In this document: positions 635-60,033 of the stretch, in pieces
How positions within the stretch are numbered: position 1 is the stretch's first letter
Layout of the letters: every line of letters begins with the position of its first letter
Assembly: GCA_010909165.1 (NCBI GenBank)
Contig: MU008180.1
Location: forward strand, 619,884 to 683,883
From: Anthoceros angustus
Lineage: Eukaryota; Plantae; Anthocerotophyta
Direction of reading: 5' to 3'
Length of the DNA: 64,000 nt
Program-made: the position numbers and the translations under genes
The notes under the pieces: model-generated
Database searches by the model: none
What the model was told of the DNA's origin: nothing
What the model saw: only the letters and a program-made list of their open reading frames with translations

Positions 635-3208
635 ATGGCTGTGATGCGAGCTCGAGTGCTGATCCTCTGTGCCCTACGTAAGTCCATCTTCACTGCAAAT
701 TGTACATTCGGCTTCTCTTTCGTGGCTCCACGTCTTGCGTTGCAGGTTCTTGTGTTGGGCCGGTCGAATTTTGCAGTGCTCAAAGTTCTTGGCTCTCGGC
801 GGATTGTTGCAGGATCTCGAGCCGTGCGTACAAATTGTTGGCACTGCCAAGTCCAGCCACTCGGGGCTCACCATTTGTATGTGGCACCTGAGGACCAAAG
901 CCAGTTGAAAGACCGGCAGAGTTCACCTGAAGGCCAGGTCGCGCAAGCTGGCGGGTCTGGCCGTGACAACCCTTCTTATGATAAAGAGCTTGTTAAGCAT
1001 GGCGCCAAGGATGCAAGCAAATGGGGAGAGCAGCTGGCGTGGATCACCAGCATTATGGAGCCTGTGCTGAAGCTTTATCGGCGCGCTTTGCCGCCAGGCA
1101 TGCCACCAACTTGTTTGCACCTGCTTGCATCCTACCATGTGGCACTCGTTTATGGTCTCTCCCGGTTGTCCTCGATAACAGGTCTTGTGGGCCAAAGGAG
1201 AGGCACATTCTTAAGTTGCTCAGCTTCAACTGCGTTCTTTCTATGATGTGCGGGTTTGTGATTCCAATTATGTGCTGGGTAGGTGCAATTGAAAGAAACA
1301 AGGGGCCAGCTAGTACAAGATCTCTTGTGGATATCGCCGCAAGCCTCCATAGGAGCTCTGCTGGCATGCAGAACTGGAGTCTTGCTGATCTTACGCTGGG
1401 CCTGTACCTACTTTCTGTGCGTCATGACACAGAGACGGTGGCTGACACCATACCTGGTGTCGAAGTGACATCAGATCTCGTGGTAATGACCACTTTCGAG
1501 AAGACAGGAAACATGCCTAGCCATACCTTCTTGGTGCATCATGCACGAGTTGTCCTCTGCTGATATGTTGTCCCAAATCGCTGTTGCATGGTTTGCATGG
1601 CTATGGTCCGTTGTAGCTGTGCCTGCTGTATGCCTTGGAACAGCAAAAGCTTCAGATGGCCTTCTCAACTCTGTGGATCATGTTGGTACAGGTCCTGGAG
1701 TGCATCTATCATGTTGAACTGGCCAAGGGAGCCTATGCCAAAAATGTCGCTGGGCTTGCTCGGTCCTGCATGCTCCGTGAATGCAACGTTGTCAAGTTTG
1801 TGGGAGAAGCCAGTGTTATGCGGCCTGCATACTACATTGGTCTTGATACCCGGCACAAGCTAGTAGTTATGGGCATCCGAGGGACACATTCAGTCCACGA
1901 TGTCATCACGGATCTGGCTTCTCATGGTGACCACTCGGCGACCTTTGAAGGGGGAAGTGTGCATTATGGCAGTGCAGAGGCCGCACGCTGGTTCCTGCAA
2001 CATGAGACTACAACTTTGAAGAGATGTGTGAAAGAAAACAAGGTGTGAGTTTTCTTTGGATTTGCATTACCCCTTGGCTTCCAAGAGCAGCTCATCTCCG
2101 TGTAATCGTGGATATTTGTCCACTTTCGGTTCTGGAACAGGGTTATCGGTTGCGGATAGTTGGTCATTCACTGGGAGGTGCCACAGCCGCACTCTTGGCT
2201 TTGATGCTTCGCAAACAGGATGCTGAGGAATTAGGGTTTTGCCCGGAAATAGTATCTGCAGTTACTGTTGCAGCCCCTCCCTGCGTTTCGAAAGCTCTAG
2301 CAGTTGAGACAGAGGAGTACATCACCGCAATTGTGCTACAGGTACAGCTGCTGCAGCAACATATTTTATGCTCCGCAAAATTGGAGCATGAGTTTAATGG
2401 ACTTTGTTGTGAAGAGGCTGAAACAGTTGTTTGAGCACAGGATGATGTTGTCCCTAGGATGAGTGCCTCCTCCCTGGTGCGCCTGCGCAATGAGATTCTA
2501 CAGCTTGACTGGTACAATCCTTAGAGCTGCATTTCGTTTATCATAATGAATCTGTGAAGGACCCAACCTGTGAGCAGGCTTATCTACTTCTTATCAAATG
2601 CCTTCTGAGCAGTTGCTTCCTGTGTTGCAGGGCCAGTGTTGTAAGGGACGGAGATGCCAGATTATCAGGTTTAATGGATCTAGTTGCAGGGACAATGCAA
2701 GCTGTTTCCTCGGTCCAGGATGTGGCGAGAAGATATGCTGCCTATGCAAAACTATCAAGCATCTATGGTACGGTGCTGTTTTCCACATGAGCCGGAAGTC
2801 CATGCTGCACCCTCTGCTGGCTAAGACTTGGATGGCCTGGCTGTAGGTATTGAGGAACAGAAGGACAGTGGTAAATCTGCTCCCAGCCAAAGCGAGAGTC
2901 TCGCCACGGAGGCAGCAGCCAAGTCTTCTGTTGTCCTAGCTTCTACCCCCGCCAGCGTTCAAGGATATCAGGAACTTGTGTGCCCAGGAAAATTATACCA
3001 CATCAGATCGAAGCCTGGCAGTGTTGATAGCAGGGTCGATTGCCCGAAGGATGGGTTCGTGTTGTTGGAAGGACGACCGGGGTCCAACTTCGGTCGGATA
3101 GTTCTGACAGGCTCGTTGCTCGCTGATCATAAATGTGACAGCCATTACTATGCCCTGAGGGACGTCTTAAAAGGATTAGAGATTCCCGGTCGTACCCAGT
3201 CACGGTAG
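635..3208 (+). CDS. Class-3 lipase / alpha-beta hydrolase, multi-exon
   Basis: Spliced ORFs 635, 1021, 1635, 2024, 2554 and 2828 give WSLADLTLGLYL, VVMGIRGT, the nucleophile motif IVGHSLGG (~2160), AAPPCVS and a C-terminal DHKCDSHYYALRDVLKGL. A strong GTAAGT donor lies at ~679. The 5' exon structure is partly uncertain. Confidence 0.9.
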
Positions 3209-3830: not shown

Positions 3831-5725
3831 ATGGGCACTAGTACTTCACCCAAGGCTCCGTCCAGCCTCCAGCAGCGTGCACGGCCCTTCCTCTTTTATG
3901 TTGTCATACTGGCTGGCGCTGTAATCTGTTTGATGGTAGTGGTGCAGCGGAGCTGCGCTCTCCAAAGACTTGTGCTGGCCGCGTCGGGTGATGCAATCTC
4001 TGGTGATCAGATTCAGTGCGTTCTTCATTTGTGCCTTGTTTTTTGCCCTGCTGGTTGAATCCGGGGCCTGTTGCTCGGGGACTTACACGGGGAAGCTTGG
4101 CAACGTGCGGGCAGGTGTGGCTTCTTCTCTCAGACTGGAGACGCTGGAAAGCGTGCTGCTCACAGGCCTGGCACTGACAGCCATGTCGACAGCGATAGGA
4201 GTCAGCCGTTTGGCCCCCGCTACACGTATTCGGATTTGCTGTGGCAGCGGGTGAACAGGATTGTGATCCGGGCTGAGGACCGGGAGGAGCTCTCGGCAGC
4301 CAGCCCGCACTTCGACTTCGCGGACGAGAGGCTGCGGCTGGTGACCAAGCTGGTGAAGTACTACTTGGAGCCATGGAAGGCCGTGGCGGGGGTGACATGG
4401 GGCTTTGGGGCGCCTCGGAAGGCCTGGAAGGTGGCCAAGGTGAGGGAAGCTGCTGTCACCTCCAACATCATGTCCTGCTGCTTGCATGTGCGGGTGGTGG
4501 ATGGAGTTGTCTACTTCAGGTACGGGCAGGTGGTGAGCCTGCTCTGGCGGCTCGGCCGGGCCAACGACTTCATCGTCTTCCTGCAGCTCACTGTGGACAA
4601 GTATGAGCTGAAAGGCTTGAGGGTGGAGTTCTTCTTCAACACCTGTGACCACCCGTTGGGAATCCGCACAATGTTCTCCACCACCACCGAGATTTCCAAC
4701 AGGGCCAATTACCTCGTTCTCAGTAACCATCTGACGGATATCAATACGGATGTGCTGGTGCCGGACTTCCTTGACTGGGGCGACTCTTACATGCCCACGG
4801 AGACGGAGCTTGCAAGCTCCCGCCACAGAAGATGGCAGGACATGATGTCCAAGCTGGTGTTCAGGGGCGCCACCACCAACTTCAACCTGGAATTCGGCAA
4901 TTGGGGCAGCAGCGCGCGGGTGAAGCTTCACAGAATGACTGACGCTTTCCCCAACCTTCTGGATGCTCGCATTTCGAGATGGAGCCACACCACTCCCGGC
5001 AGTGTGGCCCAGTTGAGGCGCGACTCAATCGACCTTGCTCCTCGCCTCAACTTCACGCAGAAGAACGCCTTCAAGTACGAGCTTGTCATCGACGGAGGTT
5101 TGGGGACCACCCGGTTGTGTGGGGTCCTGGCCACCGACAGGGTTCTTGTCCGCCAGAGCTCCCCCTTCTTCCAATTCTTCGACCCGCTGCTCAAACGGGG
5201 TCGCCATTTTGTGGAAGTGAAGCACAAGTGAGTAGGGTCACGCTCATGTCAATTTCTCCTCCCATCCCTCCTGGCCTCGCCAGACATCGATTTATCTCAC
5301 CACGGGTGTCTCCTTTCCACAGCCTGCAGGACCTGGTACAAGCTATTGAGTACATGCAGCAACATGACACAGAGATGCAGCAGATGGTGAAGAATGCACG
5401 GGAGGAGGTAGGCTGGATCTGTACCCCAGAAGGCCGGATGCTGGCATTCGCGGTGGTGTTGGTCAAGTACCATAGTCTCCTGCCGGATGCACATTTGGTG
5501 GAAAAGCCCAAGGCCGAGCATATGTGTCCGTGGGGGGCCCCACGGAACATGTCCCTGTATACCAGGAATGACGATCCTGACTGCATGGACATGGAAGAGA
5601 AACCGATTCTTCAGCAACCCGGATGTCCCACTGTCTGCTCTTACTGTGGTCTGCGGGAGAAGGATTGGTACTGGCTTTCCTCCAGGGATCTCGATGGCTG
5701 GGCTGCCTGGAATGTTTCCTATTAA
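3831..5725 (+). CDS. Glycosyltransferase family 90 / CAP10-domain type II membrane protein
   Basis: ATG at 3831 is followed by a hydrophobic anchor (FLFYVVILAGAVICLMVVV). A phase-compatible intron 4016-4114 joins ORF 4071-5231, which has VEFFFNTCDHP, KLVFRGATT and FKYELVIDGG, typical of CAP10/GT90. The last exon ends at 5725. Confidence 0.75.
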
Positions 5726-5899
5726 CAGCTTCTTCCTTGATTACCACAACGAAGAACGTAGGGTTTGAGCATAAAAGATGAAGGTGGTTGTCACCTTGTC
5801 GCTGGCCCGCACCCGCCACTTCTTCCTGTTGTGTGCTTGAATGGGCATACGCGTGCATGGCTGCTAATGTGTCAACACATCTTGAATTTTTTTAAGAGG

Positions 5900-5944
5900 G
5901 AAGAAGAAGATAAGAAGAGTAAAAAATTATTTAAGTCCACTAAG
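5900..5944 (-). mobile_element. 3' end of SINE-like repeat, left part of the copy split by the LTR element
   Basis: GAAGAAGAAG...TTATTTAAGTCCACTAAG matches the tail end of the copies at 16927-17218 and 58864-59049. Confidence 0.85.
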
Positions 5945-6533
5945 AGTAACGGTATTGATGAAATAAGGTAGAAAGGTGAAAAGTTGAAAAAGGTAAAAAA
6001 CTAAGTTAGTAGCTGCCCTGTTAAGAAATGCATGTGTTGCATGCTTCATGCAATCTCTTGTTAGAGAGGAATTGCTACAGCCATAAATGAAGAGCTACCT
6101 AGAGAGGACTCTTAGTGATTAGTGGTCCGTAAGAATCCCTAGATTTAACAGCTGCCTAGTTAAGGTCAGGCTGCGGGATATATAAGGGCTAGAGCAAGGG
6201 CTTTGAGGAACAAGTGGGACTCACTCTTGAGAGAGCAGCAAAGCCTGCAAGCCTTGTGTTGAGAGAGGCTGTGGAGAGCTAGCTAGTGAGCTTGTCATGG
6301 AATCAAGGCGTGAGCTGGGCCATGAGATAGCCGATTCCATCGTTGTATTCTTGTAATAAAGAGCAAGACCTCGAGGAGGTGGCCCGCGAGTCGTCGATGG
6401 CGGGCTACTTGGAGCCTAGTGTGTGTGAGGTTGAGAGCTTGAGAATCGTGCAAGTCTCTTGTGGAGTGAATTGGCGAGGTCCTAGACTGGGAAGCCAAGA
6501 CTTGTCGCCTTCTTCAGGGTGAGGGGTGTTACT
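5945..6533 (+). repeat. 5' LTR (589 bp), AGTAAC...GTTACT
   Basis: Direct repeat of 11083-11661, followed after a 4-nt spacer by the PBS. Confidence 0.93.
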
Positions 6534-6537
6534 TGAG

Positions 6538-6549
6538 TGGTATCAGAGC
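6538..6549 (+). promoter_or_regulatory. Primer binding site, tRNA-iMet type (TGGTATCAGAGC)
   Basis: Exact canonical plant iMet PBS, 4 nt downstream of the 5' LTR. Confidence 0.92.
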
Positions 6550-6589
6550 GTAGTCCATTCCTCCGAGTGACTAGAGAGTGCACAAGATG

Positions 6590-7700
6590 GTCAATGAGAA
6601 GCGTAAGGAGAGGTCAAGAAGCAGCCTCCGATCATCCGCCTCAACCGCTCAAGATTCATCATCGTCAGAACAAGAGGAAGTGAGAGCGCTGCCTGAGAGC
6701 ACAGCAGGCCCATCTGGAGAGAAGTCAGAGGACTGGAAGAAACGGATGGTGGAAGTACTTTATCAAGTTCTTCCAGGTGTCTTGGACGATGTAATGACTT
6801 CAAGGAAGAAGACAAAGCAGAATCCAGAGCCCACAGCTCAATAAGGCGAAGATGCGAAAGAACAACAAGAAATCTTCCTGACCAAGCAGCATCTTCAAAG
6901 TGGCTCCAAAATCGAGCATGAAGCTAGCCCTACCGATAAGTATGAGGGAGAAAGAGATGCAAGTCATTGATTCTTGGATCTATTCTATTGAGACTTATCT
7001 CGCCTCATCTGGTGTTGAGCCGGAGTACTACTTAGGTACTATTGGCAATTTCTTAAAGGGCTATGCTTTGGTCTGGTGGCGGAGTTATGGTGCTAATGTT
7101 GCCTAGGGTAACCGAGCACATACCATCACAGACTGGGCATCCTTCAAAGAAGCCCTCAAGAAGCAGTTCCAACCTGCGAATGCTTCGCGTCTAAGTAGAC
7201 AGCAGCTTGACAATATCAAGCAAACAGGTTCTTGTCGAGATTATGTAAGTACCTTCAGTGAAGCTGTCATGCACTGCACTACCATGAGTGAAGATGACAA
7301 ACTGCATCGCTTCATGGTTGGTTTGAAGGATTGGGCTGCTAACAGAATTGAGTTGCGTAGTCCAACTACATTGGCAGAGGCCATTACAGCAGCAGATGCC
7401 ATAGATACTTTCCATCCTAGTACATCCAACTCCTCCAGAAGATTTCGAGGCAGTACGCGTGGTCGGTATGCCCAAGCTAGAGGAAGCTCTAGTAGTGCCA
7501 GAGGAGCGCTAAGGACATGGAATGGAATTGCAAGAGGCAATTCAAGAGGAAATTTCATGAAGAAATCGAGGAGCGCAGAGGCGCGGAGCTCGAGAACAAC
7601 AAGTATGGGTTCTCGAAAAGGAGTATGCTACTCATGTGGAGAGCCGGACATTATGCAAATGAATGCCCGAATGGGACTCAACGAAAGTAAGGAGATCCAT
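6590..7700 (+). pseudogene. gag: gag of the gypsy element (disrupted as assembled)
   Basis: Fragments DSWIYSIETYL, FLKGYALVWW, DKLHRFMVGLKDW, PTTLAEAITAA, and a CYSCGEPxHYANECP zinc knuckle broken by a 1-nt deletion. Confidence 0.8.
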
Positions 7701-7779
7701 GACCAAGACTCGTGGATTACGAGTGGCGGATCCGAGGATCCCAAATGACGGATCGGCCACATGCAAGGCGCATGTGGTG

Positions 7780-10700
7780 AGTCTCGAGTGCCGAGGACAA
7801 GCACTATTCGGAGGGCGGGTGGAGAGCTCATGTACATACATGGATGTATAAATGGAGCGAGCGAGGATGTTGCTTGACTTAGCGAACACATAATTTCATT
7901 TCTCCTAGCAAGGCAAGCAAGCTTGGTTTGACATGGGCTAGTACATCCGAGCCATGTAGAGTGAAACAAGCTAAAGGAATGCCGCAACACAAAGGTGAAT
8001 TGCAAGAAGTGCTGAGATAGGGAATTGGAATGGAGCGTGAGCTTCAGTTGTAGATATGGATGATCATGAAATCATCTTGGGCTTAGAATGGATGAAGGCC
8101 AACAAGGTATGTGTGAACGTGGACTCACGCACCATAGATCTTAGGAGATGAAGAGCACAAAGTGAGTTGTGGTTCTCAAGCGAGGCTTGGAGACAACATT
8201 GATGATATCATCTCTAAGAAAGAGCTCAAATGTTGTGTAAAGGATGGAGAGGAACTCTTTTACTTGTCTGCAAGGACTAGAAGATGGTCTTGAGATGGAG
8301 TCTCGAGCGCCAAGATTCCAAGGAAGTGCAGCCGCCTTGAATGAGTTCAAGGACTTGATGCCCGATGAGTTGCCTCCTTTACCTCCTAGAAGAATTGTAG
8401 ATCATGAGATTGATCTCAAGCCGTGAAGTACACCGCCTTCAAGAGCGCCATATAGATTATCGCAGGATGAGCTACAAGAGTCAAGAGAAACAAGAGAGAA
8501 TCTCAAAGTCCCCGCTAGCCGCAAGAAGAATGGAGGATTGAGATTATGCTTGGATTACGAGCACTCAATCGATAATGTTGAAGAATTCTTATCCTTTGCC
8601 AAGGATGGATGACTTGTTTGATTGAGAGGTGCTAAGTATTTCACCAAGTCGGATCTAATGGCGTGCTATTACCGATTCGATCGCAGAAGGACATGAATAC
8701 AAGACCGCTTGTAGAACAAGGTATGGATCTTTTGAGTTCCTTGTCATGCCATTTGGACTCACTAATGCACCACGCTTCGACTCTCATGAATACTATATTC
8801 AGATCGATGGATGAGTGTGTTGTGATATACTTGGATGACATCATGATATACGTTCTACCTTGAAGAGCATGTCCAACACTTGAGGAAAGTGTTAGAAAGG
8901 TTAAGAGCAAATTCTTTGTTCTTAGCTATAACAAAGTGTGACTTTGTTAAGGAAGAGATAGACTTCCTAGGATTCATTGTCTCTGCGGATGGTATCGGGA
9001 TGGATCCCGATAAGGTAAAGGTTATATGAGTTGGCTGCCGCCAACGAATGTGCACGAGGTGCGTATGTTTTGGGATTGGCTAGCGTGTACAGAAGATTTG
9101 TACCGATGTTTGCCAAGATTGCTGCCCCATTAACTGATCTCTTGAAGAAGGCGAAGGCTTGGAAGTGGGATGATGAATGTCAGAGGGCATTCGAGTTTCT
9201 GAAGTTGAAACTCAGCACTACCCCAGTATTGGCAATCTATGATCCAAAGAAGGATATAGAAGTATATAATCGCGCCGATATTGCAATTGGTGGAGTGCTC
9301 ATGCAAGAAGGTAGGCGTCTTACGAATCAAGGAAGTTGCATGAACATGAAAGGAAGTACCCCACTTATGAAAAGGAGATGACTGCTGTCATCAATTGTCT
9401 CAAGATTTGGAGACATTATCTTCTAGGAAGATCTTTTTGTGCGTATACGATAATGTAAGCACGAGCTTCTTTACAAATCAGCGACTAAGCGCAAGACAGC
9501 TAGATGGCAAGATTTCCTAGCAATGTATGATGTGTCTATCAAGTACAAGCCAGGGAAGGAGAATCTCGTGGCAGATGCTTTGAGTCGCAAGCAGAGTTTA
9601 AGTTTGATAACCTACGCTTTGAGGCCTAAGCTAAATACGATGGTGATTGAGCCAAGGGACACTCACACGCAGATCAAGGAAGCTTATCTGCGAGATCCAT
9701 TAGTACAGGATTGGATCAATGAAGTGGAGCAACCGGGATCTAAGTTTAAGCTTAGAAATGGCTTGTTGATGTTCAAGCAAAACAGGATTGTGATTCCTGA
9801 TTCTCATGTGTTGAGAAGGAAGTTGCTTGCAGAGTGTCATGATGTGCCAAGTGCAGGTCATAGAGGAATTGACCCAACTTATGAGAAGTTGAGAAAGCTG
9901 TTTTACTGGCCTGGAATGTACAAGCATACTGTTGAGTATGTTAAGTCTTGTGTAGACTGCCAGGATAAGGTGGAGCAGACAAATCCGCGAGGTTTGTTGC
10001 AACCCCTGCCTATTCCAAGTGGGCCTTGGAAAAGTATATCAATGGATTTCATTATGCCATTGCCAGCTAGTAATGGACACACAGCTATCATGACACTAGT
10101 TGATAGATTCAGCAAGCAAGCACACTTCATCCCTACGAAGAAGCGAGTGAAAGCTTTTGAAGTTGCTCAGTTGTTCAAGAAGCATGTATATGTGTTACAT
10201 GGACTACCTATGCAGATTGTGAGTGACAGAGATCCCAGATTTATTGCAGAGTTTTGGCAACAGCTTATGAAGAGCTTAGGAGTGCAATTGTGTTTGAGCA
10301 CAACATATAACCCTGATACAGATGGATCAACAGAGAGGGTGAACAGAATCCAAGAAGAATACTTACGACACTATGTACAGATGGACCAGCGAGACTGGAG
10401 TAATCATCTTGAGGATGCAGAATTTTGTTATAATAACACTGTACATAGCTCCACAGGCTACACACCTTTTCGATGATGTAACGAAGCAATGGACGTAGTT
10501 TCCATGTTGAATGCTAGCGTGTTGAGACACAAAGAGAACCACGTGAATTCATTGAGCGCTTAAGGGCTGCATGAAGTTGCTAAGAAGATATTGGCCAAGG
10601 CTCAGGACAGGCAAAAGAAGTTTGGCCGACAGTGGTGCAAGAGTTAGTTCAAGTAGGAGACAAGGTGTGGGTGAAATTGAAGAATTTCCCACTACCACAA

Positions 10701-11082
10701 GGGCTGACCTCAAAGTTAAGGCCTAAGTATGGAGGACCTTTCGTAGTTCAAGCGCATTGGAAATGTGGCTTACAAACTATGCTCGAATGGATCTTCTCTC
10801 ATAATGTGTTTCATGTCTCTTCAGAAACCATTTGTGATTTCGAAAGAGAATGAAGATATGAACAGGAAGGATTATGTCATCCTGGTTCAACACAATCATG
10901 GTCTGCGGGAGATTGTTGAATTCTGGCGAGAGAGAAGAAGTCCGTGGTAATGTACCGAGTATCCGTAAGGCTTCGTGGTTATGATCCCGTCTGGTTTCAC
11001 TTGAAGATGTGCAACAAGGATCATGGATGATCTCACATAATCGGAGGTCATTGAGGACAATGACATCTTCCGATGGGGAGAG
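7780..11082 (+). pseudogene. pol: pol (PR-RT-RH-INT-chromodomain) of the gypsy element, many small deletions
   Basis: PDELPPLPPRRIVDHEIDL, PLPRMDDLFD, VIYLDDIMIY, YRRFVPMFAKIAAPLTDLLKK, IKYKPGKENLVADALSRK, and the integrase core in ORF 9523-10476. Confidence 0.9.
11075..11082 (+). promoter_or_regulatory. Polypurine tract (GGGGAGAG)
   Basis: Abuts the first base (AGTAAC) of the 3' LTR. Confidence 0.8.
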
Positions 11083-11661
11083 AGTAACGGCAGGTGAAAC
11101 AAGGTAGAAAGGTGAAAAGTTGAAAAGGTAAAAGCTAAGTTAGTAGCCTGTTAAGAAGATGCATGTGTTGCATGCTTCATGCAATCTCTTGTTAGAGAGG
11201 AATTGCTACATGCCACAAATGAAGAGCTGCCTAGAGAGGACTCTTAGTGATTAGTGGTCCGTAAGAATCCCTAGATTTAATTTGCCTAGTTAAGGTCAGT
11301 CAGGATATATAAGGGCTAGAGCAAGGGCTTTGAGGAACAAGTGGGACTCACTCTTGAGAGAGCAGGCAAGTGTGCGCTGCAAGCCTTGTGTTGAGAGAGC
11401 TGGAGAGCTAGCTAGTGAGCTTGTCATGGAATCAAGGTGTGAGCCGCCAGCGATTCCATCGGGCAATAAAGAGCAAGACCGAGGAGGTGGCCCGCGAGTC
11501 GCCGCTGACGGCGGCTACTTGGAGCCCAGTGTGGTTGTGAGGTTGAGAGCGCTGAGAATCGTGCAAGTCTCTTGTGGAGTGAATTAGCGAGGGAGGTCCT
11601 AGACCGCTGGGAAGCCAGCACTTGTCGCTTCCTTATTAGCTGCGTAGTGAGGGGTGTTACT
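11083..11661 (+). repeat. 3' LTR (579 bp), AGTAAC...GTTACT
   Basis: Direct repeat of the 5' LTR, followed by the CTAAG TSD. Confidence 0.93.
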
Positions 11662-11846
11662 CTAAGGACGGATTTCCGTCATGGGACTTGGTACTTAACA
11701 ACTTGTACCATGGTGTGCCTAAGCTACTTGCACCAAGGGCATCCACTCCCTTTAAGCACCCCATCTAAGTATCAATCTAAGCTCAGATGCTTAATCACTA
11801 CGTTCCTATAAATGTGTGTCCATTTGGCCTAAGCCATTTGGATACC
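11662..11846 (-). mobile_element. Remainder of the SINE-like copy split by the LTR element
   Basis: CTAAGGACGGATTTCCGTCATGGGACTTGGTAC...ATGTGTGTCCATTTGGCCTAAGCCATTTGG is collinear with the other copies. Confidence 0.88.
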
Positions 11847-12122
11847 TTTCAAAGATACCCACAAAAAAATTCAAGATGTATTTTTCTTTTCCTTTCCTAC
11901 ATGTATTGCTAATACATAAATCTATCATGAATGTCCTCTTATCCACGAGATACATGTCCTATCATCCCTTTTTTAATATATAATACAAACAAGCTTTTTA
12001 TTGATGAGACAAAAGAGAAACTCATCCTTGCAAGTGTCGAATTTATGTATACGCTGTTCACAAGGTATGCTGGCTATGTACATACAGTACAATGAATCAC
12101 ACAGAAAGGTAACCGTGGTTGC

Positions 12123-16926: not shown

Positions 16927-17218
16927 ATATGTGTGTCCAAATGGCTTAGGCCAAATGGACACACATTTATAAAAATGCCGTGATTAAGCATCCTGAGCTT
17001 AGATGGGGTGCCTAAAGGGAGTGGATGCCTAGGTGCAACTTAGATAGGGTGCCTAAAGGGAGTGGATGCCTAGGTGCAACTTAGATAGGGTGCCTAAAGG
17101 GAGTGGATGCCTAGGTGCAAGTAGCTTAGGCACACCATGGTACAAGTTGTCAAGTACCAAGTCCCATGACGGAAATCCGTCCTTAGTGGACTCAAATAAA
17201 ATTCTTCTTCTTCTTCTT
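16927..17218 (+). mobile_element. Full-length SINE-like element with 5' hairpin, internal 3x41-bp duplication and (TTC)n tail
   Basis: Flanked by the 8-bp direct repeat CCATACGC (16919-16926, 17219-17226). Hairpin at 16929-16966. Ends in AAATAAAA(TTC)n. Confidence 0.85.
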
Positions 17219-17550
17219 CCATACGCCTAATAAGGCTGTGTCGTGTCTGTACCACACAGGCCAACGCAGGCCTGACAGATCTTTCTGTCACCCGAAGTTA
17301 GGGTTAGTCTAAAATATGTGTAAATCGTTAAGTCTAAAATGTTCCTTGCCATCGCAGCGTGGCGACTTCGTGGCGAGTCGGCCCAACGGTATGTACCAGG
17401 CTCGTGGTATTGGGAATTTTTATTAAAACTTGGGCAGCACAGCAATTGTGAGTGTCATATACAGAGACTGCTGGCTCTAGTATGTACAGCCACCGTTTGT
17501 GTAAATCAGAGACAGAGACGCACTAGGATCCAATCCAAAGAGAGGCTAAG

Positions 17551-18630: not shown

Positions 18631-19199
18631 TCCTCCGCGGTGATCAGTAGAGGTAGGCGGGATGCTGCGGGCGCCGCCTCCTCCGAGGCCGGCAACACAG
18701 GTAGCAGAGGCCGAGGCAGCAGAGAGAGCACCAGAAGAGCCGCCCCCGCATGGATGCCGATCGCGGATGTGCCCTCAACAGCGGAAGCTTAAGGGAAGGA
18801 ATTGTCCAGGCTGTGGGATCAGAATTCGTGGAGGGATTCAAGATTTGCTGCCACTGTGAGCTCGCACCAAAGGCACAGCGGCAACTGCCGCCGCCGCGGC
18901 CCGGGATCTGGATCGGGATGACAGCCTGGCTCCAGAGCCGGGAGGCCGAACTGGCAGTCACATCCGTGTGATTGACATGTAGAGGCTGCATTTCCGGCCA
19001 TCTGGCTTGCTTTGAGTCGTGAGCAGATTAATTTGCGCCTCAAGCGCGTCTTCCTGCGCTAGTCTCGTTCTGCCTTCCTGGTGTAGGAGTTCGTGTGTTG
19101 TGCTGTATATGTCATGGCCTCGTCAGTGGGAGGTTGGCTTTGGAACCGAATTCATGCAGTTGCTTCGTCCCGTCTTTGTCCCGTCTGAGCTCGGGAGCG

Positions 19200-20927
19200 A
19201 TGGCGAGATTACCCTCCACGCGGGGCCGGGGGTCCCGGGGCGAGAGAGGCCGCGCGGCAGGGCCCGCGCGTGCCACTGCGATTCCTGCTTCGGCTGGTGT
19301 TGTTGCTGGTGCTGATGGCCATGGCGCTGGTACCGTTGCTGCTGTTGGTGGCGTTGCTGTTGTTGGTGGCGTTGCTGGTGGCGCGAGAGGAGGAGGTAGA
19401 GGTGGTGGCGGGGAGAAGAGGATCTGGAAGCAAGGCCGGGCCAAGATAGTGATCAAGCCCATCGTGAACGACAACCAGCGGCAGACCACGTTCACGAAGC
19501 GCAAGAACGGGCTGATGAAGAAGGTGGAGGAGCTGGCGGTGCTGTGCGGGGTGGATATGTGCCTCATTTGCTACGGCGCCAGCAGGGGCACCGACAAGCA
19601 GAATAACAATCAGAATAACAGTCTGTTCTGGGGGAAGCCGAGTGACGAAGATGTAATCAGGCGCTACAAAGCCATCCCCAAGGAGGAGCAGGACAGGAGG
19701 AAGATGGACAACACGTCTATGCTGGAGTCGCTCATCATGAAGCACGCAAGCGAGCTGAGGCAGGTGGGATTCGGCTGTTGATGCATGCGGGCCTAGGGTG
19801 GGAAGTTGTTTCTGTTGGTGTTGTGACGCTGGTCACCTGTTGCATGTTGCATGCAGTTGCGGGAAACGAATTACAATATGATACAGGACAAGGGGTGCTA
19901 CCATCGGGGGTACGAGGTGCTGAGACAGTGCAACGTTGCGCAGCTGCGGAATCTGATGGATGAGGTAAAGCAGAAGCGCGATCTGGTGCACGCAAGGCTG
20001 GAGCATATTCACCGTGAGGAGCAGGCGAGGCTCCAGATCCAGCAGGCGAGCCGTGCGCGTGCGAGTTTTGGTGCATGCCTGGGGCAGATGCCGGTCGAGG
20101 CCGGGAGGAGGCAGTATTTGCAGGCGGCCTTTGACACGGTTAGGGGTTGCGCAGATGGAGATGGCGCGGTACCGGTGCTGGAGTCGACTGGTGCGGATTC
20201 CGAATTGACATCCGGCGTGCACCAGAATTATCCTTGGATGCCTCAGGGTCTCACCTTAAGCAAACTGCGGCACATGCAGCAGCAGCAGCAGCAGCAGCAG
20301 CAATCCTTTTCGGCTTCTTCCTCCGGCATGCATCAGCGGCTTCCACCCGAGAGTTATCGGTGGGAGAATCAGGCGATACCCACGCCTAATTTAATGCTGT
20401 ATAACCAAATTCAGCACCAGAATATGCTGTTCACGCTTCGCCTGAACCAGCACCAACAGCAGCAGCAGCAGCTTCATGCGAAGCAAGAACACCGACAGCA
20501 GGAACAGCAGCAACAACAGCAGCAACAACAGCACCAACAAAAGCACCAACAAGAGCACCAACAACAGCAGCAGCTGCTTGCGAACCAGCAACAAGAGCTG
20601 CAAGATCAGCAAAGTCTGACCCGTGGTTCGCAAGAACAGCTGCAAGAACAACCAAGTCTGAAGCGTGGTCGGCAAGAACAGCTGCAACATCAGCAAAGCT
20701 TGAAGCATGGTTCGCAAGAACATCAGCCAAGTCTGAAGCGGCAAGAGCAGATGCAGCATCTCGAGGAGGAGTCTAGCCAGCTGCCACAGCCAGATCCCCA
20801 ACCTCATGTCGACAACCCTGCTGAGCCCGAGCCCGAGCCCGAGCCCGCAGAGGATGACTGGGCGAGTTGGAATCACTCGGAATTCGAGTGGTTCAATCGC
20901 GACAACCCTCCGTTGGCATCATTTTAG
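19200..20927 (+). CDS. Type I (M-beta/M-gamma-like) MADS-box protein with Gly/Ala-rich N-extension, one intron and polyQ tail
   Basis: MADS domain GRAKIVIKPIVNDNQRQTTFTKRKNGLMKKVEELAVLCGVDMCLICY. A phase-0 intron at 19764-19856 joins ORF 19851-20927. No K-box recognised. About 544 aa predicted. Confidence 0.85.
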
Positions 20928-23899: not shown

Positions 23900-25001
23900 A
23901 TGGCTGTCCTGGAAGCAGCCTGCCAGGCCCCGGTGGTGGAAAGCCTGGAGAAGGCGGATGCGGAGAAAGTACTCCTGGCCGGCTCATTGCAGGGGGGGAG
24001 GGAGAAGGCGGCCGCCACGTCTGTGGTGATCTGCGGGCCCTCGGGCGTGGGCAAGGGCACGCTCATCAACAAGCTGATGAAGGAATTTCCGGAAAGCTTC
24101 GGATTTGCGGTCAGTCACACCACCAGGATGCCCAGGCAGGGGGAGAAGGACTCGGTGCACTACCATTTCACCACGCGCAGCGTGATGGAGGCAGACATTC
24201 GGGAGGCCAGGTTTCTTGAGTCCGCGGACGTGCACGGCAACCTCTATGGCACCAGCATCGCGGCGGTTGACGCTGTGGCGCGCGCGGGCAAGGTAGGACG
24301 GGTGCTGGTTTGGGACCTTGTGTCGGTCCTGGGCCTTGGCGTCTTGCCAACCGGACTTGTCTGTGTGGTGCTGCAGAGATGCCTGCTGGACATCGATGTC
24401 CAGGGAGCGCAGCAGGTGAAGAAGAGCCAGGTTGGGCCCAGCTCTCTGTTCATCTTCGTGGCTCCTCCCTCGTTCCAAGAGCTGGAGAGGCGATTGCGGG
24501 GGAGGTGAGTTGCTGCGTTGCTTTTTTGGTTTCTTGTTGTTGTTGGTGGAGCATCCGTTACTTAGCCTCCTCTGTCGCACGTCGCAGAGGGACCGAGAAA
24601 GAGGAACAGATTCAGAAGAGGCTCAAGAATGCCAAGGCTGAGCTGGAGCAAGGGAAGAACGCTTCCCTCTTCGATCATGTCCTAGTTAACGATAACATTG
24701 AGGAAGCCTACAGCTCGCTAAAGGTGTGCAACGTTCTTCTCCTCTTGTGCCTTTGTTTCTGTGTGCCACCAGACCGGGGGGTCACTTTTATCTCCTGCAA
24801 CCTAATTTGTGTCATGCACGGTTGCAGAGGATTCTTGGGTTCGAAAGCATTCCTGCCGCTGCCCCTGCCCCTGCCCCTGCCCCTGCCCCTTTTGCATACC
24901 AGAATGGTTCATCATGTGAAAATGGCTCGGCCCATGAGAAGGATGCAGCCCATCAAAATGGCGCAGTCCATGCACACGGCTCAGCCCACGACAATCTGTG
25001 A
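23900..25001 (+). CDS. Guanylate kinase, 4 exons
   Basis: P-loop [14 protein letters not shown], [20 protein letters not shown], [42 protein letters not shown] and [12 protein letters not shown]. Confidence 0.95.
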
Positions 25002-26016
25002 ATGGCTTTGTGCTGACTGTCGTTTTATGGGCCAGGTGCTCATGCTGAATGCCTGCTAGCAGCTCTCCCCAGTAGAATAGCTCTTAGTAGTATAGTAAGG
25101 TAAGCTGTGCCAGTGCCAGTTCGTGGTGACAGTCATGCTCCACGATGTGTAGCTCCTAGCCAATTCAATTCTTGGAACCACGAATGACGAGCCTGGAGTC
25201 CAGAATGGGACGTAGAAGGGCTGTCTTCGTCGGTTCTGTGATGCCTACCACATTTTGTGGATACGGACCCGGTCCCGGTGAAGGAAAGGTGGTTCATACT
25301 CAGTCGGAAGGATGTACAGTCTTTCATTCCTAGATCTGGAAGCCTGTCTTTGACCTGACTTATGGTGTGACACTCACTCACACTGCTTGCTTGTTGCGAG
25401 CAAAGGAGACCAAGTGCGACAGCTCTTCTGGACAAATCTAGCGTGTGTCGGCAGGAAGCTGATCCCACTTCAATTGGGTTGTGCTGTGGTCTGCCGAATC
25501 CTGGGCGAAGCAGTGCGTGGTCCATGAAGTCTCCTTCCATGTCTTTCAACTGCTTGAGGGGTCATGGTCTATGGGTCATGGTCCGTAGATGAGACACGCT
25601 TCTCAATGAGGGGCAGGTGGCCGTGCGGTGAGCATCACAAGATACATACATACTACACAGTAGGCGTGGTCAAACACGAGGGCTGTGTGTGAGAGACTAC
25701 GGCAGCAAACCACGACCACTATGGTGACGTTGTGACACGACTGTTTTCACTTACCGTCTGCTCAAGATACGGCCGGCATGACCGCCTGCCATCCCCAGTT
25801 AAGGCTTTACTGTGATGGATTGTGCAGCCTCGGCCTTCACGAGCCGGCGGCCAAGTGTCCATTGCCTTGTACAGTACGTACGCTGGATATGAGCGCTGCC
25901 GTGCAGCATTTTGAATTTTCGCATTGCGCGGTCACAGAAAAGTCGAGCAGCAGCAGCAGCCCAGCCCGCTTGCCGAATGCGGCAGCTTGTTCACAGTTTG
26001 TGAGGACTACCGAGAT

Positions 26017-30800: not shown

Positions 30801-32981
30801 AAACGAATCCAGGAGGCACTGAATTGGTCGAACCACTGGGCTGCAGTGGGAGTCAATGCGCTTGTGGCAGCTGTGGGTTCCTGTCCTTATTGAATCCTCG
30901 TTTAATTTATTTATTTCTTGATATTTCACAGTGAAAACCTGCATTTAGCATCTTGAATTTGAAGTTTCCAAGCTACAGAAGCATTCAAACCTCCATTGAC
31001 AGCATTTTGTGGAGCAGGTGTTCACTCTACAGGGACTTGGGAGTGGATTCTTGCCATTTTGGTGGGCTGCTTTTATGATCCCAGCTCTTGCACTCTTCCG
31101 GAAGTTCCAGCGTTTGTTTGGTGAGCATTCTATTGTGTAAGTCTCAGCCTGGCTTCTATTGAAGTGATCATGAGTGTACTGCCGTGCAAGTCCCTGGTAT
31201 CTGATATTTTGCTCAATTTGTCAGGTCGATGTTGGGTTACATCGTTCCTGCAGCATTACCCACAGCATACTCTGTTCAGTTTGGTGGAGTGTTCATCATT
31301 TTCATTGCCGAGAAGATGGGCATGAGTGGCACCTTCCCAAAACCTTTTGGTATAGAAGATAGAGGGCCTAAACTCTCTTACAATGTTGTGTCCTTTTGGT
31401 TTGGAGCTCAAGTAATTTCGCATAAAACACTTTGATGTTTTACTGTAGGCATCTGGGTGGTGTTTGCAGGCTTCTATGTTGCAGACGTTATTCTTGCAAT
31501 AATAATTGGCACAATAATAGCCATCACCTTGGCACCTGTCATACCGATCGTAGGGAATTGGATTGCGAAACCTCACACGCTACGATTGCTGATATACATT
31601 AGCGTCGGAACTGCTGCTTTGTCGGGTGTGATGTTCCCTTACAGTGAACGGGCTCCAAAGCGTGTTGTTTTCCAACAAACTCTTCAGACTGAAGGTAAAT
31701 AAGTGGCTGAACTGAAGCAAAACGCCCGCATTTTGCTTCTGTTCTTTCATTTCATGCTTGTAGCTTACTTCCAAGGCTGCTTTTCTCTGCAGGGGCAGAG
31801 ATCATTCAGTCCACATACGATTTTGCAACAGTAGATCCGAATCCTATGTCATTTGTGTTTCTGCATTCTCCTAAAGTTGTCAGCAAACTTCAGCTCAATC
31901 TGCCCCTACCTGAGGAGAATGTGTACTTCGCGGACCCTGTTTCGTGGACGGTATGTTCCAAACTCCAAAACAGCACTTGTTGATTAGTGATAGCAGGTCA
32001 CTGGTCCTTGGTCCCGGCCTGAAGATTTCGATGTCCTCTGTACTGCAGGCATTGTTTCCCATATCAACGCTCTTCAATCGGGGCCCAAGGGTTTTGGCAC
32101 CAGTGGGAATACATGGAAGCCAAGGGAGAGCAGTTCCACAAATTCATGTCTTACGAGTTGAAAATGGCAGTGGACCTGGGGGCAGAAGGGTCCACATGGA
32201 GCTCGATTTAGGGTATGTTCTTTGATCTTGTTTGACACCGGTGGCCCTCCCTAGTACCACACGTAGCTTCAGAGTATGGCATATTCACTAAGCGCGGACG
32301 ATGGATGTCTGTCTGTATGCAGATCTTTGGAAGAGGTTTGGTCGACAGTTATGAACGTGACTGGGCCTCTTAGTACTTGGTCATTTGCAGATGGACATCT
32401 ACCTGGTAATTTGGACCCTGCTGTTGTATTCGATTGTTTTTACATTCTGTAGTCAAGATCTGACCTTTTTCCGACTGGTGCAGTGCCCGAATCCATCTTC
32501 GAAGGTCCTCCATCTTTTATGTGTCGTTTGACTGGTCGCAGAGCAAATGAAAATTGGCGATTCTGGTTTGAAGTAAGCTTGCTTCCTTGCTTCCTTGCTT
32601 CCTTGCTTCCTTGCTTCCTTGCTTCCTTGCTTCCTTGCTTCCTTGCTTCCTTGCTTCCTTGCTTCCTTGCTTCCTTGCTTCCTTGTTTCCTTGTTTCCTT
32701 GCTTCCTTGTTTCCTTGCTTCCTTGCTTCCTCGCTTCCTTGCTTCTTTCCTGCCTTGCTTCCTTGCTACTTTCCTTCCTTCCGTTTGAGAAGGCGCCTTG
32801 CCTGCCCTGCGGAAAATTTAATGCTCGATATCTCCAGACCAACGGGACGGAACCCCTACGCATCGAGCTTGGCGTGCTTGATCAGAAACTGGACCCAGAA
32901 GCTGAAGCCCTTGTACATCTCTTCCCTCCTTGGGCTGCAGTTACTGCGGGCACATCTTACGTTTCCTCTTACGTAGTTTAA
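27878..32981 (+). CDS. ERMP1: ER metallopeptidase 1-like (M28 family) multi-pass membrane protein, many exons
   Basis: SVLVNGHFDGPLGSPAAADC, PIIFLFNGAEE, INVEASG, IPGDTDFRMFS, GYVYHTGYDT, FPYSERAPKRVVFQQT and a terminal FPPWAAVTAGTSYVSSY. Confidence 0.9.
32578..32767. repeat. Intronic 8-bp microsatellite (CTTGCTTC)n, about 23 units
   Basis: Seen directly, right after the GTAAG donor at 32573 in the last ERMP1 intron. Confidence 0.97.
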
Positions 32982-33531: not shown

Positions 33532-33951
33532 CTGCCTCGTGCCAGACAGGAGTGCAAGAACACTGTTAAGCTCGGGAAGCGTCTAGCAGTCGCGTGCACA
33601 AAGTAGCCAGGCCACAGAAAATCAGCTGCACTGCGCAAAAGATATGCTCTTCCCGTGCACCCTAATTGTTGTACATACATGACAAGCGCCACAGAAATTC
33701 TAAGTCTCCAGAGCGAGGGCGAACAAATTGAAAGCTGCCGGTTAGCAGGAAGGAAAGGAAGCATCATCCAAGCATGGCAAGTCAGGGCCAGGCAAGAGCT
33801 CACCGGCATGGCGCACACCAGCAAGTCTCGGAAGAAAGAAGAAACGCTGTTCTCTACGGTAGTGATGTGGTTTTAGGTCTCCTTTAACAGGTCTGTGTAG
33901 ATGTGTGGATTTGAAGGCCGAGCAGGCCAGTGCTACGACAGCCGCTAAGCT

Positions 33952-36900
33952 ATGTCCGCCGTTGCATTCGCCCCGCGTCCGCTTGCAGCGGCGGCAACAT
34001 CGTCCTCCTCAGCTCCTACTCCTCCTGGCCGATCCTTCTCCTACGAACGGGCGTCCCCCTCTCTGCGCTGGCCTGACGGGGACGCGGATGCCCCGCTCAG
34101 CACGCGCCGTAATGGCGGTCTCGTCACCCCCAGTCCAACAACTCAGGATGTCTCAGAGCAGGATGGCCATGGTGACGAGCAATCCGGATTCGTCTTCACC
34201 GAAGACTACATGCGCAACAGCAGGCTCGATGGCAAGCGGTATCGCTCCAGAAAAGCTGTGGCCAGGTTAGAAGCACCCAGTCCCCGGGTCATGTCCAAGA
34301 TTGCCTTGATCAAAGCCAAGGACTGGAAGAGCAGGGTGGCGCGTCTCACCGACGCCATCCTCTCTCTGGATGCAGCGGTTTTCGTCGCGGACATTTTGGA
34401 CGCTTGGACTGAGCAGCTCCATCCCACGGACCTGTGCTTTGTCGTGAAGATTGTGGGCCAAACCAACTGGCAGCGGGCTCTGGAAGTCTACGAGTGGCTC
34501 AATTTGCGCCGCTGGTACTCTCCCAACACGCGGATGCTTGCCACCATCATAGGTGTGTTGGGCAGAGCAAAGCAGGTTGCCATGGCAGATGAGCTGTACG
34601 AACGAGCGCAGCCTGAGATTGGGGACTGCGTGCAAGTCTACAATTCCATCATGAGCGCGCACGCCCGTCAGGGCGGGTGGCAAAGGGTTGAGCACATTTT
34701 TCGGCAGATGCAGCAAAGCCAGGTGCAACCTGATTTGATCACCTTCAATATACGGGCGAATGCGCAGACCAAAGCTGGTCTGCAGCGTGGGCACGCCGTG
34801 CATCTGTTGCACGACATCCGAGCTGCTGGGCTTCGACCAGACATTGTCACGTATAACACGCTCATAAGTGCGTGCACTAACAACAGCTGCTGGGAAGATG
34901 CCTTGGAGGTGTTCCGAGAGATGAGGCAGCACAGATGTGATCCGGACATTTGGACCTACAATGCTCTCATTACCGTCTTTGGCAGGGCAGGCATGGTGGA
35001 TTTGGCGGAGGAGTACTATCAAAGCATGCAGGCTAGCGGCTTACTTCCGGACGCTGTTACTTACAATGCTATGCTATCTGCGTTTGCCCGGAGTGGAAGG
35101 GTGGAGGATGTTGATGACATCCGAGTTCAGATGTGGAAAGCCAGGTGCAACGAAGATGAAATCACTTTCAACACTCTGATGCACATGTATGGGAAGTTGG
35201 GTCTGCCTGACAAGGCTGTGGAGGTTTACGACGAAATGAAAGGCCGTCAATGTCGTCCGGATGCAGTCACGTTTAGTATCCTCATCGACGTGCTTGGTAA
35301 AGCCGGCCTGATTGCAGATGCGGAACGTGTGTTCCAGGAGATGGGGGAGGCGCAAATTTGGCCGACGCTGCAGACATTTACTGCACTTATCTGTGCCTAT
35401 GCCAAAGCAGGCTTGCTGGGGCATGCAGAGAGGACGTACGACTCCATGTCAAAGTCAGGGATTGTTGCTGATGAGCTTGCCAACTCGGTGATGGTGGATG
35501 TGTTTTACAGAGCTGGACTGTCTTGGAGAGCGATATCAGCCTACCAGAATCTCTTGTCCTTAGGTGTGAGACCTGCCTTGCATACCTGTTCGATTATGCT
35601 GTCTGTGTATGCCAAGGAAGGCATGCAAAAAGAACTTAGAGAGTTGATGGGAAAAATGCAGCAACTGGGGTTTGAAGCAGCGTCTCTGTGTTCCAGCTTT
35701 GCAAAGGCTGGCCTGTGGGAGGCAGCATCATCAGCACTGGAAGTTTGCGTCAAGAATGGGCAGCCTATTGATAGGGAGACAATGGGGCTGGTGCTTGATT
35801 CATATGCCTCGAAGAACAAGTGCGATGAAGCATGCTCCTTTGTTCATTCTGTCAGTAAGTCTGGGCTGCAACCTGAAGTTACCTGGCTACGAGAAGCTTT
35901 GATATTAATGCTCGCAAGGGCAGAGAAACTAGACAAAGCAATGATAGAATTTAACAGGTTTGTGGACGATGGGCATAAAGCAACAACAGCGATGTACAGG
36001 GCTTTGATTGTTTCCTCGGAGAAAGCTGATATGCCAGATGAGGCTGTTCAACTGTTCGAAAGCATGCCGTCAGCAGAAGTTGAGCCTGATGAACGGTGCT
36101 GCAAGAGCGCTATCCAATCTTACTGCAATCTAGGACTTCCGAATCGGGCTTATGAGCTACAGCAAAAATCAAGACCCGCATTCGAAGGGCTGGGTGACTC
36201 CAGTGTGTACGTAACAATAATTGAGGCATTTGGCAAGCAACAGCGTTGGGAAGCAGCTGAAAAGTGCTTTGACGAACTACACAAGGATAACTTGCGCATT
36301 TGCACCAAAGCTTTGAATGCCCTCCTCTTTGCGTATGCAGAGTCTGGCCAATATGATCGCTTGCGGAAGACTTTCAATTCCATGACTGCGGAGGGTGTTA
36401 CAACTTCAGATATCTCCTCTAGTGCTGTGTTGAATGCACTGACCCCGGATGGTGTATCTGAAGAGCCCCATGAGCAGGCTCACGTTTTAGAGCAGCAGTC
36501 TCAAGTTGTGGAGCAGCTCGGATTTGTTCCCAACAGAAGGACCTTTCTGGTTATGCTGAATGCGTTGTCAAAAGAAGGTAATGTGCTGGAAGCCAAGAAA
36601 GTCTACTTGGAAATGAAGCAGGCAGGGTTTGTTCCACAACAGCAGGTGTACGCGATTTTGGTGGGGCTGTTTGCCAAGGTCGGCAGTGTAGAAGATGCTG
36701 AAAACATTATGAAGGACATGGAAGAGGCCGGATGTGCACCTGATGTTATTGTCAATAATGCCATGATTGGCCTATATGGTAAGTTGGGCGACTACAAAAA
36801 GGCCTCAGAGGTATTCAAGAATATGCTGATTTCAGATTGCACTCCTGATGTCGTTACCTACAACACTCTCATTCACCTGTACAGTAGGCACCAAATGGTG

Positions 36901-50703: not shown

Positions 50704-51508
50704 AATCTACACACCAGCTTTCACACAGCTACTGTGTTCGAAACACATACTGATGCTCCAAGAACAAAGAGCAAGCATTGCGGAAGGCAAAATGCCACAA
50801 ATCCGTAAAACCGCCCTACTCAAGGGCCCTGTACGTCCTGACACCAGGCCCCATCCCCGGCACCTGCTCCTGCACCACTCCAGCCCTGGTAGCTACCTGG
50901 CCAACAGCCAGATTACAATGCCAGTTTCCTCGACAGGTCATCTCCTCGGAGCGAAGCACGTGAGCGAAAGCATGTTCAAGGACTCACTCACTCTCCCACC
51001 GGTTCTTGCTTCGGCAAGCACCCTAGCAGTAAGCTAAGGATTGAAACAATGCAGGGCCACGGCACTCCCGCATACCTAGGGGACAGGCCCAATTCCGACC
51101 CCTTGAAGTGGAGCTCCAGCAGGCTCCCAGAGACTGATATCTTGACGGCGTCTTGAGGAAAGACAGCATAAGGAGGGAAAGATTTGAATGGAAAAACCCA
51201 GGCGGCTTGCCTTGCTCCCCAACGAGCAACGCTCCAAACGCACTCAGACCGACAGAGATGCAGCTTTCCCAAGCGCGTAAGCTGTGAGACTATCTTGCCA
51301 AAACGCTCAACTCCACAGCGGCAACTTCAGAGCTCTCCTCGAGTCCTTGGAGGGAGACCGAAATTGAAAAGAAGCAAAAAGGGAGGCGGGATTTGCTCGT
51401 CTGCAAAGATCACCGAACGATGCATATCGAAAATACAAAAAAGGAAAATTGGGATTTTAGTTTGTTCTGGCGAAGGGCTTTGCCTGCCCTCGGCCGTGCC
51501 TGGCCGCA

Positions 51509-59816: not shown

Positions 59817-60033
59817 TGTAACACGTGGTTGTAGCAGGGTTGTTCGAAGCTTAGGTAGGAAGTTTTCCACTTTGGTAGATTTCTAGTAGGGTAGCTTACC
59901 CCGTTTGTGTTCCCTACGATGACGAAAAGGGCAGCCCGGTTGCGTCCCTCCAAGCTTTGGATGTTCACCTTGCCTCCCAAGCTTATGATATTCCCTTGCC
60001 TCTTGAGCTTCTGTTGTTCACCGTGGGTCTTGA

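What the first reader, a model, noticed from the sequence alone, without database searches (positions are those of the whole stretch)
5940..11666. Chromovirus with AG...CT LTR termini instead of TG...CA
Seen: both LTRs start AGTAAC (5945, 11083) and end GTTACT (6533, 11661), a perfect 6-bp terminal inverted repeat. The element is flanked by CTAAG/CTAAG. Removing it plus one TSD rebuilds GTCCACTAAGGACGG, the uninterrupted sequence of other SINE-like copies at ~16561, so the boundaries are fixed independently. The PBS and PPT sit where these ends predict. Established: DDE integrases of LTR elements almost always process and join 3'-CA ends. Inference: this lineage has an integrase/att pair using 3'-CT at both ends. 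Four concordant termini make a sequencing error unlikely. LTR finders that require TG..CA would miss the family.
Basis: partly seen in the sequence, partly recalled or inferred. Interest (0 to 1): 0.85.

Follow-up and report, generated by a model that had tools for sequence, protein, structure and literature searches.

The report
Hornwort-type retrotransposon with AG...CT ends
A jumping gene in a likely hornwort genome has end repeats reading AG...CT instead of the usual TG...CA, other copies of its family appear to share these ends, and its integrase carries three rare changes in the loop predicted to grip the end.

Summary
Confirmed. A 5,717-bp Ty3/gypsy element (5945-11661) has LTRs reading AGTAAC...GTTACT, a 5-bp duplication (CTAAG), and a Met-type primer site and purine tract in place. 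The empty site is present in other copies of the interrupted repeat.

It is not a one-off copy. In a public run, 11 contigs with unrelated flanks join the LTR exactly at the first A. A second organism shows GTTACT before the primer site and a junction ending at the last T. The host looks like a hornwort. The integrase groups with polyproteins I label Galadriel-like. A chromodomain could not be shown.

New here: the loop before the catalytic Glu reads YNPDTDGSTE. Its N, D and S occur in 1, 0 and 1 of 383 relatives, at positions matching PFV His213, Gln215 and Lys219. A link to the changed end is inferred, not shown.

AG...CT/TT ends are already known from insect Zam errantiviruses, and 3'-CT ends from plant TG...CT elements. 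Eight searches found no AG...CT report for land plants. Verdict: new variant of a known kind.

The parts
5940..5944 (.). left target-site duplication CTAAG
5945..6533 (+). 5' LTR, 589 nt, AGTAAC...GTTACT
   Evidence: start supported by 11 contigs with unrelated flanks and one junction-spanning contig
6179..6186 (+). TATA-like box in the LTR, also present in the 3' LTR
   Evidence: read by eye; untested
6534..6537 (+). 4-nt spacer TGAG between LTR end and PBS
   Evidence: relatives have 1-5 nt spacers, 8 of 11 have 4 nt
6538..6549 (+). primer-binding site TGGTATCAGAGC (initiator-Met type; assignment recalled)
   Evidence: only copy in the window
6882..7748 (+). gag, in frame-broken pieces (capsid-like domains, weak zinc knuckle)
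   Evidence: Pfam Retrotrans_gag E 2.6e-14; Arc capsid and zf-CCHC weak
8041..8148 (+). aspartyl protease fragment
   Evidence: Pfam RVP_2 E 2e-4
8334..9026 (+). reverse transcriptase, frame-broken
   Evidence: tblastn; RVT_1 E 1.7e-5
9019..9455 (+). RNase H, frame-broken
9454..10476 (+). 340-aa open stretch: RNase H tail, HHCC zinc finger and integrase core with D198, D258, E294
   Evidence: Pfam Integrase_H2C2 and rve; PDB hits Ty3 and PFV integrase; invariant columns
10306..10335 (+). integrase active-site loop YNPDTDGSTE with three rare residues (N286, D288, S292)
   Evidence: aligned to PFV Y212-E221
10584..10850 (+). SH3-like integrase C-terminal domain, frame-broken
   Evidence: Pfam SH3_Tf2-1 E 1e-5, below the curated cut-off
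10891..11026 (+). possible chromodomain remnant
   Evidence: weak: 2 of 5 relatives scored above 39 of 40 shuffles; no hit
11072..11082 (+). polypurine tract GATGGGGAGAG, directly before the 3' LTR
11083..11661 (+). 3' LTR, 579 nt, AGTAAC...GTTACT
11662..11666 (.). right target-site duplication CTAAG
17079..17220 (-). uninterrupted copy of the target repeat (best empty-site control); further copies near 16556, 58882, 59244, 59332 and 59478 on +

Best explanation
This is a Ty3/gypsy retrotransposon in a likely hornwort genome whose LTRs read AG...CT, a trait that other copies of its family appear to share, so its integrase is inferred to cut and join 3'-CT rather than 3'-CA ends. Shown: the four termini, the 5-bp duplication, PBS, PPT and gag-PR-RT-RH-IN order; other insertions starting at the same A; three rare residues in the loop before the catalytic Glu. 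From established knowledge: tRNA-Met priming and PPT priming set the cDNA ends, each end is copied into both LTRs, and integrase trims to the att end and inserts with a 5-bp stagger. Inferred: only the outermost pair flipped (TGTAAC...GTTACA to AGTAAC...GTTACT), while the inner G:C pair that registers the end was kept. Inferred and least certain: the loop changes (H to N, Q to D, Q to S) accommodate or prefer the flipped terminal pair.
For: Termini, TSD and empty site. Run X1: 11 contigs have loose ends exactly before 5945 (median 255 nt, agreement 0.45, so unrelated flanks), and a 4,429-nt contig from another locus aligns through 5945. Organism B, another study: the consensus of 7 contigs (agreement 0.85) reads GTTACT 3 nt before the PBS, and one contig joint ends exactly at 11661. 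Controls: 11 of 93 related loci had a Met-type PBS upstream of integrase and all 11 end in CA. 18 of 93 matched a PPT-plus-start pattern: 15 start TG and 3 AG matches lie inside coding frames. Loop: N 1/383, D 0/383, S 1/383; only 2 of 30 core columns that are at least 90% conserved differ in the window, and both lie in this loop. They need 4-5 base changes in 21 nt; 5 has P about 7e-5 under decay at the LTR rate. The loop aligns to PFV Y212-E221. RSV Gln151 (= PFV Gln215) stacks on the G paired with the C of the terminal CA (PMC7955051 passage).
Against: The loop was read in one copy only; no family member above about 54% identity exists in the protein collections. The integrase sits on a long branch (0.71), so rare residues may be unrelated to the ends. 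The contig tables are truncated (145 loose-end rows and 67 difference rows hidden), so TG-starting copies could be hidden. No loose-end row at 6533 or 11661 was shown for X1. GTTACT before a PBS is not proof by itself: two unrelated elements have it at the 5' LTR but GTTACA at the 3' LTR (L059, L062). The LTR start of organism B was not covered. The 11 CA-ending controls are not independent, and none of those placed in the tree lies in the window's own clade.
Confidence: 0.72

Rival explanations
1. Relaxed specificity: the ends are AG...CT family-wide, but the integrase simply tolerates any weak terminal pair after the conserved C. Both ends drifted, and the loop changes are unrelated lineage divergence.
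For: 3'-CT ends are tolerated elsewhere: TG..CT is the commonest non-canonical Copia end in lotus and occurs in soybean Gypsy elements. The branch is long. Only two mutations are needed.
Against: Both ends changed to a perfect 6-bp inverted repeat, whereas most plant non-TGCA types are non-palindromic. The only strongly conserved core positions that changed lie in the end-binding loop.
Confidence: 0.2
2. One-off mutant or sub-lineage within a mainly TG...CA family.
For: Single-end mutants exist (L059, L062). Contig tables are truncated. No genome was available for a tally.
Against: 11 unrelated flanks join at the A, and a second organism shows CT.
Confidence: 0.06
3. Assembly error or misplaced boundaries.
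For: The window is indel-rich: 29 gap events between the LTRs and 4 gaps in 286 nt against a contig with no substitution. A 4-bp TSD reading with GA..CT is formally possible.
Against: No nearby boundary gives TG..CA. A separately assembled contig matches the left junction, and 11 contigs fix the start at 5945.
Confidence: 0.02

Closest known systems
Galadriel/Galahad chromoviruses (SM1- and SM2-Galahad of Selaginella; PMC3350952, passages and Table 1)
   Same: Ty3/gypsy domain order, tRNA-Met PBS, PPT, 5-bp TSD, non-seed plant host. The integrase falls in a 23-row clade (SH-aLRT 95) with seed-plant polyproteins I label Galadriel-like from recall and with two Riccia proteins.
   Different: The published elements end TG..CA, are 7.4-7.5 kb with LTRs near 1 kb, and carry a chromodomain. 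This one ends AG..CT, is 5.7 kb with 0.58-kb LTRs, has an altered loop, and its chromodomain is unproven. The Galahad sequences themselves were not in my tree.
Zam clade of insect errantiviruses (PMC3601003, passages and Table 3)
   Same: Ty3/gypsy elements whose att motifs are AGTTAYRK...TAAYT, lacking TG..CA.
   Different: Non-chromovirus lineage in insects, often an imperfect inverted repeat. The chromovirus model in the same table (Sushi) is TGTYANR...CNTNACA. Convergence is inferred; no Zam sequence was compared.
Plant non-TGCA LTR elements (LTR_retriever preprint 10.1101/137141; lotus PMC9804982; TGTT/AACA PMC5659011)
   Same: Functional elements with non-canonical ends, including 3'-CT (TG..CT, TA..CT) and a 5'-A start (AA..CA).
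   Different: Mostly Copia and mostly non-palindromic. The two surveys state that the first base is always T. No AG..CT type appears in the passages read; the preprint's Table S2 of seven motifs could not be seen.
Ty3 and PFV intasomes (PDB 7q5b, 3l2q)
   Same: Best sequence and fold matches of the integrase; D,D(35)E core.
   Different: Their loops read HPQTDGQSE (Ty3) and HPQSSGKVE (PFV), against NPDTDGSTE here.

Membership tests
Ty3/gypsy LTR retrotransposon | two LTRs, TSD, PBS, PPT | tested here: met
Ty3/gypsy LTR retrotransposon | gag-PR-RT-RH-IN order | tested here: met
Ty3/gypsy LTR retrotransposon | D,D(35)E integrase with HHCC finger | tested here: met
Chromovirus | integrase or RT phylogeny within chromoviruses | tested here: inconclusive
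   The integrase tree groups it with chromodomain-bearing plant polyproteins (SH-aLRT 95, quick method, no non-chromovirus outgroup, no curated reference set). No RT tree was built.
Chromovirus | C-terminal chromodomain | tested here: inconclusive
   No Pfam or profile hit. Weak frameshift-tolerant similarity for 2 of 5 relatives; the script stopped before the other 3 of 8. The region is frame-broken.
Galadriel/Galahad clade | clade membership against named references | tested here: inconclusive
   Unresolved basal position in the 23-row clade; the Galadriel-like labels are mine, from recall.
Galadriel/Galahad clade | tRNA-Met PBS and 5-bp TSD | tested here: met
   features as described in PMC3350952
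Galadriel/Galahad clade | TG...CA termini as published | tested here: not met
   AG...CT against Table 1 of PMC3350952
Errantivirus, Zam clade | AG...YT termini | tested here: met
Errantivirus, Zam clade | insect host | tested here: not met
   host gene groups with bryophytes
Errantivirus, Zam clade | Pol phylogeny within errantiviruses | not tested
   no errantivirus sequence was in hand; best hits are plant and fungal-type polyproteins

The most novel reading that the evidence does not exclude
A hornwort lineage of Galadriel-related retrotransposons switched att specificity from 3'-CA to 3'-CT at both ends, and three co-evolved residues in the integrase active-site loop (equivalent to PFV His213, Gln215, Lys219) encode the switch. 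This would be a natural experiment that names the residues reading the terminal base of LTR DNA, and would mark an abundant element class that TG..CA-based annotation has missed in hornwort genomes.
Probability: 0.35. Interest if true: 0.72.

Novelty: new variant of a known kind. Interest (0 to 1): 0.52.

Why it matters
Two papers read here say the reason for TG..CA conservation is poorly understood. A family with a symmetric flip of the terminal pair and matching changes in the end-binding loop would make that question testable by comparison. It contradicts the survey statement that the first LTR base in plants is always T, although AA..CA Copia elements were already an exception. In practice, a high-copy family would be missed or mis-bounded by motif-based LTR finders, which biases repeat content and insertion dating in such genomes.

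Tried and rejected
No whole genome is held, so no genome-wide tally was possible. The window holds no second family copy and no other Ty3/gypsy coding match.

Pattern scans for GTTACT before a Met PBS gave 2 viral loci and 104 metagenome loci (80 with full flanks). None was an intact AG..CT element and only one had a weak nucleotide match to this element. A PPT-plus-AGTAAC 14-mer gave 94 viral loci; none encodes a related integrase core. A single-protein scan of viral contigs gave 0 loci.

Protein searches found no same-family integrase: best hits were about 53-56% identical over the core. The structure model (mean pLDDT 76.5) left residues 177-185, which include most of the loop, under pLDDT 50 and adds only the fold. 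Whether organism B shares the loop could not be read from the truncated tables.

I first guessed Selaginella as host; the tree placed the window's gene away from it. A longer AGAG..CTCT boundary was rejected because it leaves no 4-6 bp duplication. PMC3286476 and PMC2582038 held nothing relevant. The PFV intasome paper was not held.
Full report
Observation. The element spans 5945-11661. Both LTRs start AGTAAC and end GTTACT, CTAAG flanks both sides, a Met-type PBS follows the 5' LTR after 4 nt, and a purine tract abuts the 3' LTR. The LTRs align with 529 matches, 23 substitutions and 29 gap events; K2P is 0.043. Testing nearby boundaries, the only 5-6 bp duplication gives AG..CT. Two 4-bp readings give GA..CT or AG..TC, and none gives TG..CA. 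The AG..TC reading fails because the two LTRs differ at that extra base. The interrupted repeat is present uninterrupted in the 4 copies compared, and 44 contigs of run X1 show the empty site.

One copy or a family. No genome was held, so I used public contigs. Four runs from two studies hold parts of the element; 1,658-3,028 contigs per run were laid on the stretch, a share of them on the flanking repeat. One X1 contig covers 5700-5985 with no substitution. On the 5' LTR, 11 X1 contigs have loose ends exactly before 5945, with long unrelated flanks. Had they begun with T, the match would start at 5946; had the LTR included the preceding G, it would start at 5944. In organism B, 7 contigs read GTTACT 3 nt before the PBS, and one joint ends exactly at 11661. 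Limits: these are contigs, X1 may be the window's own source, the tables are cut (145 loose-end rows hidden), B's LTR start is not covered, and GTTACT before a PBS also arises as a single-end change in unrelated elements.

What it is. Pfam and tblastn give gag, protease, RT, RNase H, integrase and an SH3-like domain in Ty3/gypsy order, in frame-broken pieces. Many breaks may be assembly indels. A host gene groups as sister to mosses plus liverworts with 99/97 support, which points to a hornwort; no named hornwort sequence was in the tree. The integrase joins a 23-row clade (SH-aLRT 95) of seed-plant polyproteins that I label Galadriel-like from recall, two Riccia proteins and unnamed rows. Its end branch is 0.71, and the 74 rows were my selection from the hits. 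A chromodomain was not detected by Pfam or a profile. A frameshift-tolerant test gave only weak similarity for 2 of 5 relatives. 'Chromovirus' is therefore likely but not proven.

Controls. Of 93 loci with related integrases, 11 had a Met-type PBS and all 11 end CA, 8 with a 4-nt spacer like this one. 18 matched a PPT-plus-start pattern: 15 start TG, and the 3 AG matches lie in coding frames. These loci are partly redundant, and one scan pattern favoured the ordinary loop. Published Selaginella Galahad elements end TG..CA (PMC3350952, passages and Table 1), as does SM-Tcn1 (PMC2864245, passages). So the change is confined to the outermost base pair.

Integrase loop. The ten residues ending at the catalytic Glu read YNPDTDGSTE. 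Among 383 related proteins, all covering the loop, the positions hold H 373 (N 1), Q 327 or E 45 (D 0) and Q 358 (S 1). Of 30 core columns at least 90% conserved, the window differs at 2, both in this loop. The changes need 4-5 base substitutions in 21 nt; five has P about 7e-5 at the decay rate implied by the LTRs. They are therefore probably lineage-level, although seen in one copy only. The loop aligns without gaps to PFV Y212-E221 and to Ty3. Tyr212, His213, Pro214 and Gln215 are listed as PFV active-site residues (PMC4976072, one passage). The RSV equivalent of Gln215 stacks on the G opposite the C of the terminal CA (PMC7955051, passages). That PFV Gln215 displaces the partner of the terminal A is recalled from the PFV intasome paper, which was not held. 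The Ty3 intasome preprint (passages), a commentary (PMC2946245, part 1 of 2) and an RSV preprint (passages) gave no residue-level statement on this loop.

Mechanism. Shown: ends, TSD, priming sites, other insertions starting at the A, the rare loop. Established: both LTRs inherit each end from one template, so two mutations suffice, and integrase joins the processed 3' end with a 5-bp stagger. Inferred: this integrase joins 3'-CT, registering on the conserved C, and the loop changes fit the flipped terminal pair. I put family-wide AG..CT at about 0.9, and a causal role of the loop at about 0.35-0.4.

Comparison with what is known. AG ends are published for the insect Zam clade, AGTTAYRK...TAAYT (PMC3601003, passages and Table 3). 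In plants, non-TGCA ends are about 1% of elements, mostly Copia, with the first base reported as always T (10.1101/137141, passages; PMC9804982, passages and section 8). AA..CA Copia elements are an exception (PMC5659011, passages and section 12). REXdb was built by requiring TG/CA (PMC6317226, passages). Eight searches found no AG..CT report for land plants or hornworts. The library lacks most subscription papers, Repbase and Dfam were not available, the preprint's Table S2 could not be seen, and no supplements were read. Unchecked notes of this scan report AG..CT in diatom and dinoflagellate-type Copia, which suggests that this flip recurs; none concerns this family.

Verdict. Real, very probably family-wide, and a new variant of a known kind. 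The terminal motif has precedent outside plants. The plant Ty3/gypsy setting and the coincident loop changes are what make it worth following. Interest 0.52.

Noticed in passing
window 16930-17230 (-); also 5900-5944 with 11662-11845, 56000-56230, 58860-59820: The target is a very high-copy repeat of about 300 nt: summed contig depth about 39,000 in bin 11703-11900 against 11 in bin 5700-5906 in run X1. It has a hairpin-like end, internal 41- and 52-nt tandem units and a GAA-rich other end. Its class is unknown; no tRNA or relevant Rfam match.
   Followed up: partly
window 5945-6533 against 11083-11661: Near the U5 end, 9 contigs of run X1 leave the 5' LTR at 6487 and continue like the 3' LTR, so the 5' LTR is the more divergent one there. 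Many frame breaks in the element may be assembly indels.
   Followed up: partly
L059 (same element in L041, L070, L082) and L062: Unrelated LTR elements whose 5' LTR ends GTTACT and 3' LTR ends GTTACA, that is single-end changes.
   Followed up: partly
L003, L010, L018, L027, L029, L036, L051, L064 and similar: Tiny TRIM-like elements (repeats near 190 nt, internal part near 70 nt, Met PBS) whose repeats end near TGTTACT in both copies; a possible TG..CT type, boundaries not fixed.
   Followed up: no
window 47947-50706 (-): Single-ORF gamma-tubulin complex component 3 homologue, sister to mosses plus liverworts (99/97), used to place the host.
   Followed up: yes
window 4059-5231, 19032-19781, 24271-25059, 33949-38352, 51461-52477, 56567-57799: Neighbouring genes by Pfam: glycosyltransferase 90, MADS/SRF box, guanylate kinase, a 1,467-aa PPR protein, WD40 and a CAP domain.
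   Followed up: no
window 32560-32790 and 60001-60310: A long CTTGCTTC-type tandem array and a 32-nt tandem array.
   Followed up: no
L214-L293: Many prokaryote genome records hold contigs with eukaryotic Ty3/gypsy integrases, most likely contamination.
   Followed up: no
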